64,000 nucleotides of DNA from Candidatus Poribacteria bacterium (GTDB lineage: Bacteria > Poribacteria > WGA-4E > WGA-3G), in NCBI GenBank assembly GCA_963665235.2, contig CAXXLX010000001.1, forward strand, positions 3,712,001 to 3,776,000, written 5' to 3'. This document shows, one piece after another, positions 29,208 to 48,058 of this stretch; within the stretch, counting starts at the first letter, position 1, and each line of letters opens with the position of its first letter. Below the pieces are notes generated by a model that saw only the letters and a program-made list of their open reading frames with translations, did no database searches and had not been told where the DNA came from. The position numbers were made by a program, and so were the translations under genes.

Positions 29208-32207
29208 ATGAGGAAAACAAAAATTATGAGATTATTACGATATATACTATGCCTATTCACAATTTTGGCATTCCTTGCACTACCGGTAAGTGCGGATGTC
29301 GATTGGAAAGCACTTGATGTAGGAAATTTATCCTCTGCTATTTACAATACCGCAGTCGTTGGATTTCCCAGTAGTCCTACATCGAACCCCTCCGGATGGT
29401 GGCCTGCCGGAACAAATGACTCCTACATCTATGAAGGCGATATTTGGATCGGTGCCAAAAAAGGCGGGGAAATTGGCGTTTCTGAAGCAGATGGACGGCA
29501 CAGCGAAATTTGGCCGACCGACGACGTGCCGGAGGTCATTTCAAACAAACCCGGTGTGACAGCAAAAGGGACACCGACAAGTCAAACCATCATGTTCAAA
29601 TGCTCTGACACCAACCCCGCAGCAAACACGGGGTTAATCCTCGGGCTAGAACTTGAGGTCAACGGATATCAATGGAGTTATGCGCCACTTTACGATTTCT
29701 TTATCCTTGAGTACAACGTCAAAAACGTTGGAGAGGACACGCTTGAAGACCTATTTATGGCGTTCCGATACGACGTGGATATCTCCAGCAATGAAACCGG
29801 GACATCGAACTACTCCGCTGATGACTTCGTCGCCCTCGATCAGACTCCAGACGGGCTCAACCCTGACGCACACCCGAACCGTTATCTCTCTTACGGATTC
29901 TCCAACGCTTCCTCACCGGGTTACATCGGTTTGCGTGTTCTAGACGCATATCTCGGGGAGGATGAGGAAGATGCCGCGGCAAAAATCCCGTTCACAGCAC
30001 ATAAGCGGATTACGATTTCTACTGACCCAACCACTGATGCCGAGATGTACGCGCTAATCAGTACTCCTGGGGTTGAACCGCTTCCTGCAAACTATGACGA
30101 CCAACGTTTCATCCAATCTTATGGCCCGATTGAATCGTTCGCGCCCGGCGACTCCTTCAATATCATAATCACAGTCGCAATCGGCGAAGGCCTTTCAGGA
30201 TTGCAAGCGGCTTCGGATTGGGCCCAGAAATTGTACGACGACGATTACATTGCCCCAGCACCACCCCCCTCACCCCTTCTCGCAGCTTATCCAGCAGATG
30301 GACAGGTGTCGCTCGTCTGGGAGAGTGCCGAACGTTGGGTGGATGCGGGAGTCAATAAAAGCATTGAGGAATACATTGACCCAACCGACCCGGATAAAAT
30401 CTTTGAAGGATATCGGGTGTACAGACGGGATACCAGTTACAATCAGGACACCGGCACCCCTGTGGAAAGCTGGAAATTGCTAATGGAATTAGACAAACCG
30501 AGTGCCACAGGCAATTTCTTCACAGTGGCACACGTCGGCAAGCAGTCCGATGCTATCATTGAAAATGAGGGAGACGAGCCCTACTTCGCTGACTTCTTCA
30601 AAAACGCAACGTACGCCATTAAATTCAATTCAAGCACTAATTTTGAGGTGATTAACACAACGTTGTGGGAAGTTATGGCGTATAATGCCGAATTTCCAGC
30701 AAATGGCGGCGGGTACGTTGTCGTCAAAGATCCGGCCACAGGTGAAGCTTACCCGGATGGGACATACCGCTCTGGAGAACTCATCTATTTCGGTGGGCTC
30801 TACGTTAAAATTACCGATGGTCCCTCAGGGCCTCCGGTCGCAGGGGATATTTTCCGCGTCGTTTCCACACCATCAATTGCCCTCGGTGAGGATGTAGGTA
30901 TCAAGAATTTCTATACCGATGAAGGGCTAATTAATGGAACGCAATACACCTACGCGGTCACCTCTTACGATACAGGCAACCCGCAAAAGGGATTGCCCGC
31001 GATGGAGAGCAGTCAAATTGAAACGATGGTTCATGTTGTACCACGTCCTCACCCAGCAGGATACAAAGCACCTGTTGTTGAGGTCAAACAGGCCGACGCT
31101 GTAAACGTCACTGTTGAACCCATGGTGCTCGTACCAAGCGATATTACGGGAAATGAATATAAGATTGTCTGGTACGGCGCAAAACAGGTCGGACCCGCAG
31201 GATACATCACAGGCCCCGGCTATCAACCCCCCGGTTATGAAATCGTTGACACCGTAACGAATCAAACGGTAGTCGAAAGACAACCTTTCGCTTGGTATGA
31301 CCCTGCCAACCAGCAAGCTGTTGAAGTGCTCTCCCCGATGTTTGATGGCATCGTCTTGAAGCTAACAGGTGCTGATGTCTCCTACGGAACCCCAGCCGAA
31401 AACGGAATTAACGCCGTTAAATTGACAGCAGGCACAGTCACCGACTGGTCAGTGAAAATTGAATCCCCCGGCGTGGCTGATAACACCTGGCCAAACGTCT
31501 GGTGGTCCACCTATTATCGTCCGCATACCTACACTATCACGTTTACTGACGATACACACGTCAAAGTGGTAGACGAAGATACGGGGGAAGAGATAGCATT
31601 CAATGACCAACGGGCCGATGGATACGCTATCCTGACAGGGGCAGGTTGGAGCGATGAATACGTCCCAGCGGATACAGCAGGTTATTTCCGTATTTTCATT
31701 CGCGGTGCTTACGTGTACATTTTCGATCCGAACAGTGAAATCTCTGCTGGCGATGTATTTACTGTCGAAATGGGCGGTATTAGTGCACCACAAGATGGAG
31801 ACGAGCTGCTTTTGACAACTCAAGGCGCATCGCTTGATGCTGAAGACATCAAAGCGGAGCTCGAAAACATTCGCGTCGTGCCGAATCCTTACCTTGTCAC
31901 AAACAGAGCTGTAACCGAAGTAGGAACAGACAAAATCTTTTTCACACATCTCCCACCTCGATGCACAATCCGAATTTATACGCTGACAGGTGAATTGGTA
32001 CGCGAAATTGAGCATGAAAGTACTACCCCCTTTAATCCTGATGAACGGTTAGGACAAGGAGACAAAGGAAGCACAGCTGAATTCAATCTCCTTAACCGCT
32101 ATAATCAGGCAATAGCAAGTGGTGTGTACATCTATCATGTTGAAGCAGTAGATGAGAGCAAGACTGCCATCGGAAACAAAATCGGGCGGTTTGCAATCAT
32201 TAGATAA
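29208..32207 (+). CDS. Large secreted protein with FN3-like region and C-terminal Ig-like (T9SS-CTD/FlgD-like) domain
   Basis: Signal peptide (start 29208 or 29226); PAPPPSP..V.L.W, FEGYRVYR, D.GL.NG..Y.YAVT.YD; IRVVPNPY..FTHLP..CTIRIYT..GELVR..ASGVYIYHV. Confidence 0.8.
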   Translation: MRKTKIMRLLRYILCLFTILAFLALPVSADVDWKALDVGNLSSAIYNTAVVGFPSSPTSNPSGWWPAGTNDSYIYEGDIWIGAKKGGEIGVSEADGRHSEIWPTDDVPEVISNKPGVTAKGTPTSQTIMFKCSDTNPAANTGLILGLELEVNGYQWSYAPLYDFFILEYNVKNVGEDTLEDLFMAFRYDVDISSNETGTSNYSADDFVALDQTPDGLNPDAHPNRYLSYGFSNASSPGYIGLRVLDAYLGEDEEDAAAKIPFTAHKRITISTDPTTDAEMYALISTPGVEPLPANYDDQRFIQSYGPIESFAPGDSFNIIITVAIGEGLSGLQAASDWAQKLYDDDYIAPAPPPSPLLAAYPADGQVSLVWESAERWVDAGVNKSIEEYIDPTDPDKIFEGYRVYRRDTSYNQDTGTPVESWKLLMELDKPSATGNFFTVAHVGKQSDAIIENEGDEPYFADFFKNATYAIKFNSSTNFEVINTTLWEVMAYNAEFPANGGGYVVVKDPATGEAYPDGTYRSGELIYFGGLYVKITDGPSGPPVAGDIFRVVSTPSIALGEDVGIKNFYTDEGLINGTQYTYAVTSYDTGNPQKGLPAMESSQIETMVHVVPRPHPAGYKAPVVEVKQADAVNVTVEPMVLVPSDITGNEYKIVWYGAKQVGPAGYITGPGYQPPGYEIVDTVTNQTVVERQPFAWYDPANQQAVEVLSPMFDGIVLKLTGADVSYGTPAENGINAVKLTAGTVTDWSVKIESPGVADNTWPNVWWSTYYRPHTYTITFTDDTHVKVVDEDTGEEIAFNDQRADGYAILTGAGWSDEYVPADTAGYFRIFIRGAYVYIFDPNSEISAGDVFTVEMGGISAPQDGDELLLTTQGASLDAEDIKAELENIRVVPNPYLVTNRAVTEVGTDKIFFTHLPPRCTIRIYTLTGELVREIEHESTTPFNPDERLGQGDKGSTAEFNLLNRYNQAIASGVYIYHVEAVDESKTAIGNKIGRFAIIR

Positions 32208-32233
32208 AACGAACGCACTCGTAGGAAACAAAT

Positions 32234-33370
32234 ATGTATAATACTACTATTTTTGATGTGAATTTACAAAATGCTAGGACAGGGAAGAATATGCTGAACT
32301 GCTATCCTTACCGTCTTCTACTCCTACTCTTAGCGGCTGTCATGTTCTTCCCGGCACTCGCGGGGTATGCTACCACGAATGTCGGCACCGCCGGGGCACA
32401 ATTTCTCAAAATTGGACCGGGGGCGCGAGCGGACAGTTTAGGCGGCGCGTTCGGCGCAATCGCTAACGACGTTACCACAATCTATTGGAACCCAGCAGGG
32501 TTAAGTCAAATTGAAAGCACAAGCTTTTCAGATACGCATACGGTATGGCTTGCAGATACACGATATAACTATCTTGCGTTTGCCACACCCATCGAAAAGG
32601 TTGGCACCCTCGGTGCTAGCGTCACCTTTCTCAACGTGCCCGACACAGAAATCACAACCCTTGCCAAACCAGATGGCACCGGGCTGTGGTATTCAGCATG
32701 GGATACAGCCGTGTCTTTAGCCTATTCCAGACAACTCTATGAAAAGGACTCTGGGGCAAAACTCTCATTTGGCATTAATGCCAAATATATTCACCAGCAA
32801 ATTCATCGGGAAAGCGCAACAGGGTTCGCAATTGATGTCGGAACGTTATACCATACCGGCTGGCGGAGCTTACGTATCGGCATGGCTTTCTCAAACTTCG
32901 GTCCTGAAATGCGTTTCAGCGGGCCCGATTTGGAAACAGGCGGTAAAGAGGGGGGCGATGAAAGAAACGCCGAGTATCGACCCTATCCAGATACCACAAA
33001 TCCAGCCCGAAAAGCGGAGTTGCAAACCGTCGAATACCCGTTACCTGTCAATTTTCGACTTGGTATCGCCTATGATCTGATGGATACAGACATCAACCGA
33101 CTCACCCTCGCTCTTGATGGAAATCATCCGAATGACAATAGCGAACGACTCAACCTCGGATTAGAATACTGGTACAAAAAACGTGCAGCAATCCGGGCAG
33201 GCTATAAACTCCGCCTCGGCCCCGACCGTAGTGACGATGAAGAAGGTATCACCCTCGGCGCGGGGATACACTTAAAGATTCGTGAAATGCAAGTGTCTCT
33301 CGATTACGCTGTCGCCAATTTTCAATACCTACAACATGCACAGCGCGTCAGTTTGGGACTAACGTTCTAA
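32234..33370 (+). CDS. PorV/PorQ-family outer-membrane beta-barrel (start may be 32291)
   Basis: GTAGAQFLKIGPGARA.SLGGAF, YWNPAGL, DVGTLY, LP..FR.G; C-terminal Phe. Confidence 0.85.
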   Translation: MYNTTIFDVNLQNARTGKNMLNCYPYRLLLLLLAAVMFFPALAGYATTNVGTAGAQFLKIGPGARADSLGGAFGAIANDVTTIYWNPAGLSQIESTSFSDTHTVWLADTRYNYLAFATPIEKVGTLGASVTFLNVPDTEITTLAKPDGTGLWYSAWDTAVSLAYSRQLYEKDSGAKLSFGINAKYIHQQIHRESATGFAIDVGTLYHTGWRSLRIGMAFSNFGPEMRFSGPDLETGGKEGGDERNAEYRPYPDTTNPARKAELQTVEYPLPVNFRLGIAYDLMDTDINRLTLALDGNHPNDNSERLNLGLEYWYKKRAAIRAGYKLRLGPDRSDDEEGITLGAGIHLKIREMQVSLDYAVANFQYLQHAQRVSLGLTF

Positions 33371-43590: not shown

Positions 43591-44520
43591 TCACGCCTCG
43601 GTTTCTTCCAGGACCTGCTGGAAGTCTTCGGGCGTGTTCGCCAACATAGCAGCGCGGAGCAGTGCCTGAAGCTGCTGCGGGTCGTCGATTTGCTCCAATG
43701 CGGGTTTAAAGCGAAGCGCAGCATCGGACTGCAAGCGAAGGGTTAGTGCTTCAAAGATGCTTTGCTGCACACCTTGCTGCACACCTTGCTGTATACCTTG
43801 CTGTATACCTTTTTGGTGTGCCTCCGCTGTCGCTTTCTCTGTTAGGTGTCGGATAATATCTAATTCGTACATCGTCTCCTCCTTTACAATAGCTAAAATC
43901 ATATTCATATCATAAACTAAATTGCCTAAAATAGCCATGCTCCCAATATACTCAGATGGCTCTGGCACATCTGCGCGCGCCGCAGTTTGAACACATCGCC
44001 GAAACCACGCCTCCGCATCTACACCCGCAGGACGCTCCATCAACGGCGTAAACGGAAGCAACCCGACCGCATTTGAATCCAATACCGCCTGACCATCCAT
44101 ATCTATCAACCGAACAACCTTATACTCTATCAAAATCCGGTGATCCGCTAAATCCTGTGTAAAACGTCCCGGGTCATTTTTACCCGCATCTGGGCGAATA
44201 TAGATGACATAAGAATACACAAGCAACCGATATTTCGCAGCTATCCACATGATGTAACCCCCCATTCTTAGGGGCATGGGCGGGTCATAGCTGTCTGTGG
44301 TCTGGAACTCAATGTGCAACAACGCCTCTCTGCCATCAACTTCCACTTTGATAAGCACGTCTGCCTGATGCATCTCAATCGTTGGTTGTTCAGGTGTGAT
44401 GATTTCCAGCACGGTGAAATCTTTGTCACCTATACAAAGGTTTGCAAAATCATCAGGGTGTTCCTGAACATAATCTTTAGAAATAGTGTCAACTACTGCC
44501 ACTTTATCTCCTTTCGCCAC
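43591..44520 (-). CDS. Rpn family nuclease
   Basis: ADVL..V....LHIEFQT, PLRM, LLPFTPLM, QGIQQG repeats; internal AAGGAGG-ATG at 43872. Confidence 0.85.
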   Translation of the reverse strand: MAKGDKVAVVDTISKDYVQEHPDDFANLCIGDKDFTVLEIITPEQPTIEMHQADVLIKVEVDGREALLHIEFQTTDSYDPPMPLRMGGYIMWIAAKYRLLVYSYVIYIRPDAGKNDPGRFTQDLADHRILIEYKVVRLIDMDGQAVLDSNAVGLLPFTPLMERPAGVDAEAWFRRCVQTAARADVPEPSEYIGSMAILGNLVYDMNMILAIVKEETMYELDIIRHLTEKATAEAHQKGIQQGIQQGVQQGVQQSIFEALTLRLQSDAALRFKPALEQIDDPQQLQALLRAAMLANTPEDFQQVLEETEA

Positions 44521-44629
44521 TACGGCGTACGCTTATTTAACATTATACACGAAATGTGTTAACTTTTTCAACCTTAGAATCACAACATCTTGCCAGGAGA
44601 GAAAATAATGAAAATCTGCGATTTTCAAC

Positions 44630-45078
44630 GTTTCGGTGTCAAAACCCAATGCTTTAGCTTTGGGATGTAGACACCGCTAAAAACTTTGATTGCACACTAA
44701 ACCTTTTTAGTTGTTTTACGTCTAATAGATTTAGAGTGTACGGTTGCTATAGAGGGCAGTTACGCGCCTCCTGATTAGACTTCCTATAGTGTAAAGCTCT
44801 AATGTCAGTATTCGGGGTGAAACCCCGCTCCTCCGTCAGAAAGTGTAGCATGACAGTCGTTAGTAGGGAAAGACAGGTAATGCTGAAACCCGTTTGAACA
44901 ATACGACTCAAAACAAATTTCACAAGGACACTTCGGTGTCGCAGTCAGGGTAGTGTCTGTTGCAGTAGGCTTCTGTCCCTGGAGAACCGCTATAGGTTTT
45001 CTAAACAAGGTCGTTGATCGCACGAAAGCTTTCGCATAACTTTGCGGAAGCCCAAGTCTTTAGACTTGGGTCTATCAC
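44630..45078 (+). mobile_element. Protein-less IS605-type element / putative large structured omega-like RNA
   Basis: Left end CGGTGTC-AAAACCCAATGCTTTAGCTTTGGGATGTA-GACACCG; right end GAAGCCCAAGTCTTTAGACTTGGGTCTATCAC; internal TTCG and GAAA hairpins. Confidence 0.7.
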
Positions 45079-48058
45079 AGATAAACTCTAATTCCTGTGT
45101 TAGCAATTGTGGGTCTCTGCAAACGTGAAAACGCCACTTTTTCAGTTTTCCCCAATTGTTCACAGCGGATACCCACCGTTTGGCAGCAGCATGCTTGGCG
45201 TGCACCTGATCTGGTTCAAAACCTTTGATTTCTAATATGAGGTGGTCTCCGTTCTTGAAGCGGACGATAAAATCCGGTTCGTAACGGTGAGAAAACCCAT
45301 TGTGTTCGTACGGAATGCCGAGTCCGAGATGATCATTTCGTACATAGCATTCCACAATTTCTGATTGCTCAAGCCGAAATACTGCTGCACGTTCCCAGCT
45401 GTCTGTATCCAACACTACCTGATTCACATGGCTGCGTTGTGTTCCAACACAGGGCCGCGATGTGAGAAAATCAACATCAGCCGATGTCCCAATCGGTGCA
45501 TACCGGTTTAGAATAGGCAGCAGCGGTATTTCTCCCTTCGCCTCGTCAGGTTGGATAGCGGCCATCAACCTTTCCACAATACGCATAACGTATTTTTCCT
45601 GTCCAAGTTCACACGGGTGCTCCCCGCGAAAATCAACCTTTGTTTTGACATAGTTATCAACATACCGAAAGACCTGTGGAAAGAGCCGATGCCGTGAGAG
45701 TAGCCTTAGCTTCGGATTACTGTTCGGATCAGGGGCGGTGTCCCTATCCCCAACTAACTTGCGCACAATCCGATGTGCAATTTCAAACTTAATCGCCTGT
45801 AGGTGAGTGCTATCATAATACGCCTCGCGGTCCTGAAGTTTAACTTCTCCCGGCCCGGATGTCGAAGGCGCGCCCGTTTCGTATCCTACAGCAGGTTTAA
45901 CAAAAAGTGCTGTCGGATTCCGTTCAGGTTGAATCTGAAGCGGTTCAGTAGAGGTAATGTCAGCCTTGATTTCGTTCTTACGCAATGCGAAGGCATACCC
46001 TTCAACAACCGGATATTTAATCTCAAAATGTTCACGTTCAGGCAACGCCCGGACGTGGTTTTTCGGTTTGTCATCCGGGGCACTCGCTGTAGTGGGTCTG
46101 CCTCTAAACGGAATAACCGAAAAGGGTATACCGTAAACATCAACATATTCCTCGGTAAGCAGCCCCGTCTCTGGGTCCGGTGTATAATTCATGCGGCGCA
46201 ACCCGCGCCCGACTACCTGCTCACAAAGGAGTTGACTACTAAAGGCGCGTAACCCCAAAATATGTGTGACGTTGTTCGCGTCCCATCCCTCGTTTAGCAT
46301 TGCGACTGAGACAACGCATCGGATTTGCTCGCCCGGTTGCCCACGCTTACCGATTGTGGCGACTATCTGTCGGAGCTGCTCCGCTGCATCCGATTTCGAT
46401 TGACTGGCATCAGCCTTCTCCGCTTGTGCCAACATTTTGCTATCGATACGTAACGTTCGTTTCACATTCTCTGTATTTGAAAATAGGTCGGGGAAAATTG
46501 CCCCCTGTTCGTAGACCGTCCGCGTCTTCTGCTTTTTTCGTTTTTCGTTTGAGGTGTCCTCGTCAGCAACCTCAACCGTCCGTTCGCCGGAGATTTTTTC
46601 GTAAAAATACGCCGCTATGTCGGTATTGGCACAGACGACAATCATGACAGGTGGCGTTTTTTCTTGGGCATCGGAGGCTTCCTGAATGTATTCAAACCGC
46701 TCTTTCCATTGACTTGCAAGCGTGATAAGAGCGGGTTCCGCCTCGCGATAGATAGCATCCGGTTTAGGTGTCCGTTTCCGTCTGCCCGGGGACGTATCTG
46801 CTGCTGAGAGCTCATCATTGATTGTTTTCCACAATCGAAAGTATTTCGGCTCAGGTCTACCTGTGGTATCGCTCACTGGCAAGCGGGGAATTTTTGTGAT
46901 GCCGCTCTCAATTGCGTCAACCAAACCGAAATCGCTAACAAGCCACGGAAAGGGGTCCCCCTCTGCATGACCGCTGCCTTTTATGTAAAACGGCGTAGCG
47001 GAGAGGTCAACACAAAACTTAACACCGCACCCTACGTTAATCTTGTCCAAACCTTCCACCCAAACAGTGGCTTCTTGACGTTCCCGCTTTTCATCGGCGG
47101 AGAGTTTTTCGGCATCCTCCTCTATAGGTGCTGGACGGTAGGCGTGATGTCCCTCGTCGTTCAGCACCATAATTGGCGCGCGGTCGGACAATTCCCCCAA
47201 GACACGTTTCGCAAAAACTTCCGGTGTTTCCTTGCCTTTATTGATAACTGTGTATGTCTTCCCACCTTCACTATGTGGCGACTCAGGGGCAAATTGATGC
47301 CAATTGGTAATCAAGACTTTTCCGCTATTGAGCAGTGGCCGGAGTTTTGTCGGGATGAGTTCAAACTCGTCGTAGTAGTTATTCGCCTCTTCGGGACGTA
47401 AAACTTGCAGCCGTTGTTTGATTGTGAGGTTCGGACAGACGATAAGGGCAGCTGCGGGAAAACGTTCGTCAGATGGCACTTTTCCACGATTGCAAAATGC
47501 CCACGCGATGAGCATCGCCATCACAACGGTTTTACCGCTACCGGTCGCCATTTTGCACCCGTAACGGATTAGAGCGGGAATATCTTCTGTGTTTGGAATA
47601 TCCACTAACTTGGCGAGGTCTTCATCGGTGAACTGCGGAGTGAAACGGAGATGTTTGCCACCCTGACGTATTTCGGCAAGATAGATAGCTGTCTCAACCG
47701 CTTCACGTTGGCAGAAAAAGAGTCTTCGGAATAGGTCGTCCCGTGTCCAATGCCGTAGCAGTTCACGGGTGATGGGAGTAGCGTTGCGATAATTGGCATC
47801 CCGCCACCGTTTAACATCGGCCCGTAGCGCGTTGACTAGCGGCAGGTCATCCCACTCCTCTTCTCGGAAGAGTTGGAGCTGTTCGCTGCCGGTGCGCTGT
47901 GTTTTATACCAATAGCCTGCATCTCGCCGTCCCGGTTGTTTGACCGCTGCGCCTGTTTCCGTATCGTAAACCCAGTGGGTGTTTGGCTCTTCGTACGGGC
48001 TGCATAGGATAGGTTGCTCTACAGGTTGGATTGGAATGTCAGGTCGGTTTTGATTCAT
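44990..48058 (-). CDS. Type III restriction Res subunit (DEAD-like helicase plus nuclease, BPTD_3080-like); last ~28 aa come from the inserted element
   Basis: FFCQREAVET, KMATGSGKT, NDEGHH, DLSATPF, SVAMLNEGWD, EQVVGRGLRR, PDF...LEIKG. Confidence 0.88.
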   Translation of the reverse strand: MNQNRPDIPIQPVEQPILCSPYEEPNTHWVYDTETGAAVKQPGRRDAGYWYKTQRTGSEQLQLFREEEWDDLPLVNALRADVKRWRDANYRNATPITRELLRHWTRDDLFRRLFFCQREAVETAIYLAEIRQGGKHLRFTPQFTDEDLAKLVDIPNTEDIPALIRYGCKMATGSGKTVVMAMLIAWAFCNRGKVPSDERFPAAALIVCPNLTIKQRLQVLRPEEANNYYDEFELIPTKLRPLLNSGKVLITNWHQFAPESPHSEGGKTYTVINKGKETPEVFAKRVLGELSDRAPIMVLNDEGHHAYRPAPIEEDAEKLSADEKRERQEATVWVEGLDKINVGCGVKFCVDLSATPFYIKGSGHAEGDPFPWLVSDFGLVDAIESGITKIPRLPVSDTTGRPEPKYFRLWKTINDELSAADTSPGRRKRTPKPDAIYREAEPALITLASQWKERFEYIQEASDAQEKTPPVMIVVCANTDIAAYFYEKISGERTVEVADEDTSNEKRKKQKTRTVYEQGAIFPDLFSNTENVKRTLRIDSKMLAQAEKADASQSKSDAAEQLRQIVATIGKRGQPGEQIRCVVSVAMLNEGWDANNVTHILGLRAFSSQLLCEQVVGRGLRRMNYTPDPETGLLTEEYVDVYGIPFSVIPFRGRPTTASAPDDKPKNHVRALPEREHFEIKYPVVEGYAFALRKNEIKADITSTEPLQIQPERNPTALFVKPAVGYETGAPSTSGPGEVKLQDREAYYDSTHLQAIKFEIAHRIVRKLVGDRDTAPDPNSNPKLRLLSRHRLFPQVFRYVDNYVKTKVDFRGEHPCELGQEKYVMRIVERLMAAIQPDEAKGEIPLLPILNRYAPIGTSADVDFLTSRPCVGTQRSHVNQVVLDTDSWERAAVFRLEQSEIVECYVRNDHLGLGIPYEHNGFSHRYEPDFIVRFKNGDHLILEIKGFEPDQVHAKHAAAKRWVSAVNNWGKLKKWRFHVCRDPQLLTQELEFICDRPKSKDLGFRKVMRKLSCDQRPCLENL

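What the first reader, a model, noticed from the sequence alone, without database searches (positions are those of the whole stretch)
44630..45100. Protein-less IS605-type element that appears to be one large structured RNA ending in a guide
Seen: 449 bp bounded by a left hairpin (CGGTGTC..CCCAA..TTGGG..GACACCG) and a right end GAAGCCCAAGTC-TTTA-GACTTGGGT-CTATCAC, with no tnpA or tnpB ORF. The interior is rich in stems: CACACTAAACCT/AGATTTAGAGTG, CTATAGAGG/CTTCCTATAG, CGGGGTGAAACCCCG, GACAC-TTCG-GTGTC and CGAAAGCTTTCG. Removing it after TCAAC (44625-44629) restores ..ELEFIC* for the res gene on the opposite strand. Established: TnpB omegaRNAs come from such right ends and use the 3' flank as guide, with the TAM at the left junction. 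Inference: a mobile RNA-only guide cassette (guide AGATAAACTCTAATTC.., TAM about TCAAC) used in trans by a TnpB. It is longer than typical omegaRNA scaffolds, so the extra domains may be an undescribed ncRNA. Its transcript would also be antisense to res. The left boundary is uncertain by a few bases.
Basis: partly seen in the sequence, partly recalled or inferred. Interest (0 to 1): 0.8.

Follow-up and report, generated by a model that had tools for sequence, protein, structure and literature searches.

The report
Protein-less IS605 element carrying guide RNA
This is a small protein-less mobile element of a sponge-symbiont bacterium that carries a conserved folded RNA resembling the guide RNA of the TnpB nucleases encoded elsewhere in the genome, which is a known kind of element.

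Summary
The feature is real. Window 44626-45078 (453 bp, + strand, ends good to ±1 nt) is a non-autonomous IS200/IS605 element (PATE) in a Candidatus Poribacteria genome. It has left and right hairpins and no ORF. It sits next to the family's conserved TTAT motif, which reads TTTT in this copy.

- **Copies:** 6 in this genome, and matches in 28 of 112 genomes of the family.
- **RNA:** about 320 nt, with strong covariation.
- **Link to TnpB:** the last 131 nt align to the tnpB 3' end and right end of resident ISDra2-like TnpB elements. Their right ends are near-identical to this one.
- **Promoter:** 42 of 56 unique copies carry a sigma-70 promoter just upstream of the RNA. The window copy does not.

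It most likely works as a standalone omegaRNA used in trans by TnpB, with the 3' flank as guide. That class is already published, so this is a new member of a known kind.

- The TAM position is TTAT, not TCAAC.
- Excision restores res as ...ELEFI*, not ELEFIC*.
- One listed stem is a copy-specific insert, and two others are not conserved.

This copy may be inactive. The conserved 5' domain of about 180 nt is unexplained.

The parts
44622..44625 (+). Target/TAM position next to the left end. It reads TTTT here; the family consensus is TTAT.
   Evidence: 32 of 33 family-A copies show TTATC at this place, and the window copy shows TTTTC. 31 of 33 IS605-type elements in this genome show TTATC. Empty alleles show that the C is not part of the empty site.
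44626..45078 (+). The whole non-autonomous IS200/IS605 element (PATE family A), 453 bp. The boundaries could be rotated by one base, to 44625-45077.
   Evidence: Multi-copy alignment. nhmmer finds 6 full-length copies in this genome. 11 of 12 empty alleles in relatives are one base shorter than TTATC plus flank.
44634..44676 (+). Left-end subterminal imperfect palindrome (a hairpin of the kind Y1 TnpA recognises).
   Evidence: Sequence. Compensatory changes between copies: CGGTGTC/GACACCG versus CCGCGAC/GTCGCGG, and CCCAA/TTGGG versus CCCCC/GGGGG. The same hairpin type occurs in full IS605 copies.
44677..44730 (+). Leader. Most relatives carry a sigma-70 promoter here, but none is recognisable in this copy.
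   Evidence: No + strand promoter-like site lies inside the element. L060 scores 12 of 12 with a TG. 42 of 56 unique copies score 10 of 12 or better, while G000 copies score 7-8 of 12.
44731..44909 (+). 5' RNA domain (helices P1-P5), specific to PATE family A. Its function is unknown.
   Evidence: Two sequence subtypes fold to the same architecture. 11 of 12 RNAalifold pairs show two-sided changes. G-U pairs mark the + strand as the folded strand. The domain was not found next to any gene.
44809..44834 (+). Copy-specific 24-26-nt hairpin insert (contains CGGGGTGAAACCCCG) in the linker between P1 and P3.
   Evidence: Absent from the other 5 copies in this genome and from sibling contigs ('left out 24'). 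Its 15-nt core occurs 5 times in the genome; 4 of those, this one included, share the fuller motif, each after CAG.
44910..45078 (+). 3' omegaRNA-like domain. The last 131 nt (44948-45078) are homologous to the tnpB 3' end plus right end.
   Evidence: nhmmer alignments to C1:31610-31454, C1:3154669-3154827, C2:338682-338524 and C2:434721-434881. Covariation: 93.8% of cells paired versus 35-49% when the partner is slid; 24 of 38 pairs with two-sided changes.
45051..45078 (+). Right-end hairpin (45051-45070) plus the terminal TCTATCAC.
   Evidence: Sequence. 8 of 9 hairpin pairs show two-sided changes. The last 45 nt of the type (i) tnpB elements L159 and L163 differ from the window's right end by about one base.
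45079..45094 (+). Flank in the guide position (16 nt, AGATAAACTCTAATTC). It is antisense to the last res codons.
   Evidence: The position follows the omegaRNA rule: a guide of about 16 nt taken from the flank (passage in PMC8612924). It has one exact match in the genome, its own site, and none with 1 mismatch.
45080..48058 (-). Type III restriction res gene. Its stop codon was split by the insertion, so the ORF now reads on to 44990.
   Evidence: Translation. Pfam ResIII, E = 1.2e-07. Orthologues exist in 82 of 112 family genomes. Their C-termini vary.

Best explanation
Window 44626-45078 is a PATE, that is, a protein-less non-autonomous IS200/IS605 element, of a family found only in Candidatus Poribacteria genomes in the pattern scan run here.

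The Y1 TnpA of resident IS605 copies would move it as single-stranded DNA. Those copies have the same hairpin ends and the same TTAT target.

Its cargo is an RNA of about 320 nt. In most copies this RNA is transcribed from the element's own sigma-70 promoter. The 3' domain of about 170 nt is the counterpart of the omegaRNA of an ISDra2-like TnpB (type (i), 407 aa, four ORFs in this genome). It ends exactly at the right end, so the transcript runs on into the flank, which becomes the guide.

TnpB made elsewhere would bind this RNA in trans. It would then cut the TTAT-flanked empty donor joint left by excision, and recombination would restore the element.

Shown here:
- the element anatomy, copies, ends and target;
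- RNA covariation;
- homology to the tnpB-linked right-end region;
- promoters in relatives.

Inferred:
- transcription in this organism;
- TnpB binding, guide use and homing.

The window copy itself may be inactive. It has no promoter, its target position reads TTTT, and it carries a 24-26-nt insert. The role of the conserved 5' domain (44731-44909) is unknown. It may be removed by processing, or it may stabilise or extend the scaffold.
For: - **Copies:** 6 in this genome. Interior matches occur in 28 of 112 family genomes. 75 full-length matches were found in fetched loci, 56 of them unique, all 405-480 bp with no room for a gene.
- **Distribution:** all 50 of 50 pattern matches in the genome collection carry Poribacteria titles.
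- **Ends:** the same TTATC and end hairpins occur in 3 tnpA+tnpB, 12 tnpB-only and 18 protein-less elements of this genome.
- **No target duplication:** 11 of 12 empty alleles read TTA, one T or C, then the right flank.
- **Homology:** the last 131 nt align to the tnpB 3' end plus right end. Right ends of type (i) elements are near-identical to this one.
- **The candidate nuclease:** type (i) TnpB carries OrfB_IS605 and the Cas12f1-like TNB domain. It matches ISDra2 TnpB structures at E = 1e-43 over residues 14-368.
- **Covariation, 3' domain:** 93.8% of cells paired versus 35-49% for slid partners. The score is 0.479 versus 0.06-0.12. None of 500 shuffles reached it.
- **Covariation, 5' domain:** two subtypes share one fold.
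- **Promoter:** a match of 10 of 12 or better in 42 of 56 unique copies, ending about 6 nt before P1.
- **Coding remnant:** no decayed tnpB coding sequence is detectable (best E = 1.1).
- **Literature (passages read):** standalone omegaRNAs work in trans (PMC10691335). PATEs often encode omegaRNAs (PMC10055086). A TTAT TAM is known for ISDge10 TnpB (PMC13507860).
Against: - No experiment or read-level RNA data shows this RNA, its ends, or any binding to TnpB.
- Only Logan contigs could be laid. They show sibling copies in RNA libraries but cannot prove transcription.
- The window copy has no promoter-like site on the + strand and no upstream + strand gene.
- Its target position reads TTTT, the only such case among 33 copies.
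- 8 of 28 genomes with the family have no close type (i) TnpB (best E worse than 1e-180; one of these is cut off by a contig end). The association (20 of 28 versus 26 of 84) is confounded by genus.
- The 5' domain has no counterpart in tnpB elements at sequence level.
- Rfam holds no matching family, so membership rests on my own alignments.
- One empty allele carries 7 extra bases. One occupied site replaces 240-350 nt of native DNA. Neither is explained by clean peel-and-paste transposition.
Confidence: 0.7

Rival explanations
1. The family is an active standalone omegaRNA, but the window copy is a dead relic. It would be neither transcribed on its own nor excisable or re-targetable, and its only effect would be the 30-codon extension of res.
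For: - No promoter-like site inside the element on the + strand. G000 copies score 7-8 of 12 where most relatives score 10-12.
- The target position reads TTTT, against TTAT in 32 of 33 copies.
- A 24-26-nt insert is present in this copy only.
Against: - The RNA core from P1 to the right end is almost identical among the 5 close G000 copies, which suggests recent spread inside this genome.
- The insert sits in a variable linker.
- Poribacterial promoters may differ from the E. coli consensus that the scan uses.
Confidence: 0.4
2. The structured RNA, or at least its 5' domain, has a function that does not involve TnpB. Examples would be a regulatory RNA, a decoy or an unknown ribozyme. The IS605 ends would only carry it around.
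For: - The 5' domain (about 180 nt) is conserved with covariation across two sequence subtypes.
- It has no counterpart in tnpB elements.
- Other PATE families in this genome carry different 5' domains on a similar 3' module.
- 8 of 28 genomes with the family lack a close type (i) TnpB.
Against: - The RNA ends exactly at the right end with a tnpB-type 3' module.
- No known RNA family matches.
- Every genome with the family has some TnpB match at E <= 1e-30.
Confidence: 0.15
3. The element is a decaying internal-deletion derivative of an IS605 with no RNA function. Its conservation would then only reflect recent copying.
For: - PATEs can arise by deletion.
- The ends and the promoter position match the full IS605.
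- An 18-nt stretch of the tnpB coding sequence resembles the P5 hairpin.
Against: - Copies in different genera are 68-81% identical yet keep their helices through two-sided changes.
- 42 of 56 unique copies keep the promoter.
- No coding remnant is detectable.
Confidence: 0.08
4. The element is an IStron-type group I intron, or an IscB/IsrB-type (HEARO) omegaRNA element, rather than a TnpB-type one.
For: IStron-derived PATEs exist (figure legend in 10.1101/2023.11.20.567912). The RNA is long for a TnpB guide.
Against: - No Rfam match at E <= 1 for any family over the element, its relatives or the cognate IS. My recollection is that Rfam holds group I intron and HEARO models.
- The element lies antisense to res, so splicing would not rescue res.
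- Its own promoter and the tnpB-type right end point to TnpB.
Confidence: 0.03

Closest known systems
Standalone (effector-less) omegaRNAs and omegaRNA-bearing PATEs of IS200/IS605 (Altae-Tran et al., as summarised in PMC10691335; Meers et al., PMC10055086)
   Same: A protein-less element with IS200/IS605 ends in a genome that also holds effector-bearing copies. The RNA scaffold ends at the transposon boundary, and the effector is expected to act in trans (passages read).
   Different: This family was found only in Poribacteria in the pattern scan. In most copies the RNA has its own sigma-70 promoter, and a conserved 5' domain of about 180 nt sits upstream of the omegaRNA-like part. At least 6 PATE families with different 5' domains coexist in one genome. 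Function in trans is not tested here. I could not see those papers' supplements or figures, which may show similar cases.
ISDra2 TnpB with its reRNA/omegaRNA (Deinococcus radiodurans; PDB 8BF8, 8EXA, 8H1J)
   Same: The resident type (i) TnpB matches ISDra2 TnpB at E = 1e-43 over nearly its full length. The RNA is derived from the tnpB 3' end plus right end, with a flank guide of about 16 nt (passage in PMC8612924).
   Different: ISDra2 uses a 5-nt TTGAT target and an RNA of about 150 nt encoded with tnpB. Here the target is TTAT or TTAY, the RNA is encoded without tnpB, and it is about twice as long if it starts at P1.
ISDge10 TnpB
   Same: A 4-nt TTAT TAM (passages in PMC13507860), the same motif as the conserved target here.
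   Different: No sequence comparison with ISDge10 was made here. Only the motif is shared.
IS608 / IS200-IS605 peel-and-paste transposition by Y1 TnpA
   Same: Subterminal hairpins at both ends, no inverted repeats, insertion next to a conserved tetranucleotide, and no target duplication (mechanism passage in PMC8612924).
   Different: No tnpA inside the element, so it must be mobilised in trans. 13 Y1 transposase matches exist in this genome.

Membership tests
Non-autonomous IS200/IS605 element (PATE) | Subterminal imperfect palindromes at both ends, without terminal inverted repeats | tested here: met
   Left hairpin at 44634-44676 and right hairpin at 45051-45070. Both covary between copies.
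Non-autonomous IS200/IS605 element (PATE) | Insertion next to a short conserved target, with no target-site duplication | tested here: met
   TTATC lies at the left junction in 32 of 33 copies. 11 of 12 empty alleles read TTA, one T or C, then the right flank. One allele has 7 extra bases.
Non-autonomous IS200/IS605 element (PATE) | No protein-coding gene inside | tested here: met
   No + strand ORF of 40 aa or more. All 75 full-length matches are 405-480 bp. The best tblastn hit of TnpB proteins on family A is E = 1.1.
Non-autonomous IS200/IS605 element (PATE) | An autonomous relative with the same ends and a Y1 TnpA in the same genome | tested here: met
   Three 1.81-kb tnpA+tnpB elements have the same target and hairpin types.
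Non-autonomous IS200/IS605 element (PATE) | Excision and insertion by TnpA supplied in trans | not testable with these tools
   This needs an excision assay. Different flanks at every copy and empty alleles in relatives show past mobility only.
TnpB omegaRNA (standalone) | Scaffold homologous to the tnpB 3' end plus right end, stopping at the transposon boundary | tested here: met
   nhmmer aligns model positions 295-417 to four tnpB elements. Right ends are near-identical.
TnpB omegaRNA (standalone) | Conserved secondary structure on the transcribed strand | tested here: met
   24 of 38 pairs with two-sided changes, and 0 of 500 shuffles reach the observed score. Searches cover the 5' domain.
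TnpB omegaRNA (standalone) | Transcription through the right end into the flank | tested here: inconclusive
   A promoter is present in 42 of 56 unique copies but not in the window copy. RNA-library contigs hold sibling copies, and depth at the right end is high, but contigs cannot show transcripts.
TnpB omegaRNA (standalone) | A compatible, apparently intact TnpB in the same genome | tested here: met
   Four type (i) ORFs of 407-444 aa, Pfam domains and a match to ISDra2 TnpB. I read the GFDFG, FFEDLN and DRDHNAA stretches of the sequence as the RuvC motifs by recall.
TnpB omegaRNA (standalone) | Binding by TnpB and guide-dependent, TAM-dependent DNA cleavage | not testable with these tools
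Group I intron / IStron | A group I intron core, with the element in the sense orientation of the interrupted gene | tested here: not met
   No Rfam match at E <= 1. The element is antisense to res.
IscB/IsrB omegaRNA (HEARO) | A match to the HEARO model, with the guide at the 5' side of the RNA | tested here: not met
   No Rfam match at E <= 1. The conserved module abuts the right end. I did not search the genome for iscB.

The most novel reading that the evidence does not exclude
The 5' P1-P5 domain (44731-44909) would be a separate functional RNA module that protein-less elements fuse to a common TnpB-type 3' guide module. At least 6 PATE families in this one genome each carry a different structured 5' domain behind the same promoter position. 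On this reading they are modular 'guide-RNA parasites' whose 5' domains tune stability, processing or competition for the shared TnpB, or do something unrelated to TnpB.
Probability: 0.2. Interest if true: 0.7.

Novelty: new member of a known kind. Interest (0 to 1): 0.38.

Why it matters
- It adds a well-delimited natural example of a self-promoted, effector-less omegaRNA element, with many diverged copies that define its fold.
- It shows that uncultured sponge symbionts hold a rich set of TnpB elements. In this genome, 18 protein-less elements stand against 15 with tnpB.
- For people who engineer TnpB, a natural trans-acting RNA with its own promoter and a short TTAT-type target is a useful template.
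- The conserved 5' domain poses a simple question that truncation experiments could answer.
- For annotation, the apparent C-terminal extension of res is an insertion artefact.

Tried and rejected
- **Rfam scans** at E <= 1 over the element and over relatives plus the cognate IS gave only chance-level hits: sR32, mir-1537 and snoR113.
- **Decayed coding sequence:** tblastn of 14 TnpB ORFs against 8 PATEs gave nothing below E = 1 for family A.
- **Empty site in this genome:** flank pairs of 33 elements gave none.
- **Empty site of the window copy in sequencing runs:** no contig bridges it, so that is no evidence either way.
- **Orthologous res ends** are too variable to fix the original stop.
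- **Seven occupied sites in relatives were examined:**
  - L057 had no clean empty allele. Four relatives hold 238-352 nt of other DNA and one holds about 1.8 kb.
  - L058 gave one allele with 7 extra bases.
  - L060, L082, L176 and L177 gave 3, 2, 2 and 4 clean alleles.
  - L178 gave no paired flanks.
  - The junction base is T in 5 alleles (4 of them reading TTAT) and C in 6 (TTAC). The boundary is therefore good only to ±1 nt.
- **RNA libraries:**
  - In run X10, a 464-nt contig covers the left end and 5' domain of a sibling copy.
  - In run X7, the right-end bin has depth 4626 against 204 at the left end. The same ratio is about 1.5-2.3 in the two runs laid for DNA (library type not on record).
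  - These are contigs, so I treat this as a hint only.
- **Association with type (i) TnpB** (20 of 28 versus 26 of 84 genomes) is confounded by genus.
- **Off-target matches of the 16-nt guide:** none with 0-1 mismatch.
- **The 18-mer shared with the tnpB coding sequence** scores 31 against a shuffle maximum of 27 of 200, but the similarity does not extend further.
- **RNAalifold on 24 type (i) 3' ends** predicts a scaffold of about 265 nt closed by a long-range helix. It lies in coding sequence and I did not test its covariation, so I do not lean on it.
- **Alignment tools:** mafft-qinsi failed because MXSCARNA is not installed, so I used plain MAFFT alignments.
- **No covariance model** was built.
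- **Literature:** 'Poribacteria' plus 'TnpB' found 0 papers. Paper supplements and figures were not seen.

Full report
**What is there.** The window lies in a 5.3-Mb, 4-contig genome.
- Positions 45051-45070 form the right hairpin, followed by TCTATCAC ending at 45078.
- No + strand ORF of 40 aa or more lies inside.
- On the - strand, a 1022-aa ORF (44990-48058) with a ResIII domain runs about 30 codons into the element.

**Copies and host.**
- BLAST and nhmmer find 6 full-length copies in the same genome: five at 88-89% identity and one with the same ends but a diverged interior.
- The interior alone matches in 28 of 112 genomes of the same family, at 68-81% identity for the longer matches.
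- A conserved-motif pattern hit 50 stretches in the collection of 185,579 species genomes. All 50 titles name Candidatus or uncultured Poribacteria.
- In the loci fetched, nhmmer found 98 matches. Of these, 75 are full-length and 56 unique, all 405-480 bp, so none carries a gene.

**Ends and target.**
- Every copy has different flanks.
- TTATC precedes the left hairpin by 6-9 nt in 32 of 33 family-A copies. The window copy has TTTTC.
- The same holds for 31 of 33 IS605-type elements paired in this genome.
- To place the cut, I compared seven occupied sites in relatives with other genomes. Of 12 empty alleles viewed, 11 read TTA, one T or C, then the right flank. That is one base shorter than 'TTATC plus flank'.
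- The conserved C is therefore the first base of the element, or the boundaries are rotated by one base.
- The junction base is T in 5 alleles (4 reading TTAT) and C in 6 (TTAC), so I cannot choose between the two.
- I give the element as 44626-45078 and the target as TTAT, the TAM reported for ISDge10 TnpB (passages in PMC13507860).
- There is no target duplication.
- Two cases do not fit clean peel-and-paste transposition. One allele has 7 extra bases equal to the hairpin-loop motif. One site has the element replacing 240-350 nt of native DNA.
- For the window copy, every boundary reading consistent with the empty alleles gives res ending ...ELEFI*. Orthologous Res tails vary after QEL/EEL.

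**Relation to TnpB elements.**
- The genome has 44 matches to the TnpB zinc-ribbon family and 13 to the Y1 transposase family.
- Among the 33 paired elements, 3 are 1.81-kb tnpA+tnpB elements, 12 are about 1.41-kb tnpB-only elements and 18 are protein-less.
- nhmmer aligns the last 131 nt of the window copy (from 44948) to the last ~157 nt of four tnpB elements. The alignment starts inside the end of the tnpB ORF.
- In 24 type (i) elements from this genome and relatives, the right end is the same type. The last 45 nt of two of them differ from the window's by about one base.
- Type (i) TnpB has the OrfB_IS605 and Cas12f1-like TNB domains. It matches the solved ISDra2 TnpB at E = 1e-43 over residues 14-368.
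- tblastn of TnpB ORFs finds no coding remnant in family A (best E = 1.1).

**The RNA.**
- In the full IS605, a TTGACT/TATAAT promoter follows the left hairpin, ahead of tnpA.
- At the same place, 42 of 56 unique family-A copies have a sigma-70 match of 10 of 12 or better. Its -10 box ends about 6 nt before the first helix.
- This sets an RNA of about 320 nt running to the right end.
- The 3' domain (44910-45078) has 38 consensus pairs in 7 helices. 93.8% of cells pair, against 35-49% when partners are slid. 24 pairs show two-sided changes, and no shuffle of 500 reaches the observed score.
- The 5' domain (44731-44909) exists in two sequence subtypes that fold to the same P1-P5 layout. 11 of 12 consensus pairs show two-sided changes, with many G-U pairs that fit only the + strand.
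- Rfam has no match at E <= 1 for the element, its relatives or the cognate IS.

**How it most likely works.**
- ISDra2 TnpB binds an RNA of about 150 nt made from the tnpB 3' end and right end, plus about 16 nt of flank. It cuts the TAM-flanked donor joint (passages in PMC8612924).
- Standalone, mobilised omegaRNAs that work in trans are described (PMC10691335). PATEs that 'often encode' omegaRNAs are noted (PMC10055086).
- The element fits that class. TnpA would move it in trans, and TnpB would use its RNA in trans with 45079 onward as the guide.
- The 3' domain alone has the size of a usual omegaRNA.
- The 5' domain is extra. TnpB may trim it, as a paper title seen in a search listing suggests for TnpB mRNA (PMC10278001), or it may have a role of its own.

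**Limits.**
- Transcription and TnpB use are inferred.
- Only contigs could be laid on the stretch. They show sibling copies in RNA libraries and high depth at the right end, which is a hint at most.
- The window copy has no promoter-like site, a TTTT target and a private 24-26-nt insert, so it may be inactive.
- Close type (i) TnpB is present in 20 of 28 genomes with the family and in 26 of 84 without. This comparison is confounded by genus.

**Verdict.** The finding is a real and well-supported new member of a known kind. Interest is moderate. The open point is the conserved 5' domain, together with the coexistence of several PATE families that carry different 5' domains.

Noticed in passing
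G000 C1:2583948-2584435, C1:1772414-1772890, C1:2603624-2604101, C1:546343-546844, C3:14404-14882 (family B); C1:469802-470416 (C); C1:490753-491347 (D); C1:1891803-1892351 (E); C1:1298508-1298882 (F): At least five further protein-less element families share the TTATC target, left hairpin, promoter position and a related 3' module. Each has a different structured 5' domain. Family C also holds a tandem repeat.
   Followed up: partly
window 44809-44834: A 24-26-nt hairpin insert is present only in this copy. Its 15-nt core occurs 5 times in the genome. Four of those, this one included, share the fuller motif and follow CAG, like a tiny mobile hairpin.
   Followed up: partly
L171 (G104:C1:3998590-3998710) versus L058: The allele without the element has 7 extra bases (GCTTTAG) between TTAT and the right flank. 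These equal the loop motif of the end hairpins and may be an excision footprint.
   Followed up: no
L057 (G104) versus L165, L167, L168, L169: At this site the element stands in place of 240-350 nt of native DNA that four relatives keep, so the event was not a simple insertion.
   Followed up: no
G000 C1, inside the type (i) tnpB of the element at 31454-33262, about 700 nt before its right end: An 18-nt stretch encoding KTGKAE just before GFDFG differs by one base from the P5 hairpin region of the element (window 44870-44887). The local score is 31 against a shuffle maximum of 27.
   Followed up: partly
G000 C1:646133-646148 (right flank of copy c646) and hundreds of other places, e.g. C1:807573-808649: The 16-nt guide-position flank of this copy matches 897 places at 3 mismatches or fewer. 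It lies in a very abundant repeat, spaced about 50 bp apart in the long runs listed.
   Followed up: no
L034 (G013:C1:4996649-4999721), positions 187-1620: A family-A copy is interrupted by an insertion of about 1 kb with two ORFs of 154 and 175 aa. They look to me like a split DDE transposase (not tested). A sibling copy (L052) is intact.
   Followed up: partly
G123:C1:58149-59095 (site of L082): In G123 the same target site seems to hold a different insert of about 780 bp. The left-flank match runs two bases into the element start.
   Followed up: no
window 44542-44571, - strand: An 11 of 12 sigma-70-like site (TTGAAA-18-TATAAT) lies in the left flank, upstream of the - strand ORF 43591-44520 (309 aa, no Pfam match).
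   Followed up: no
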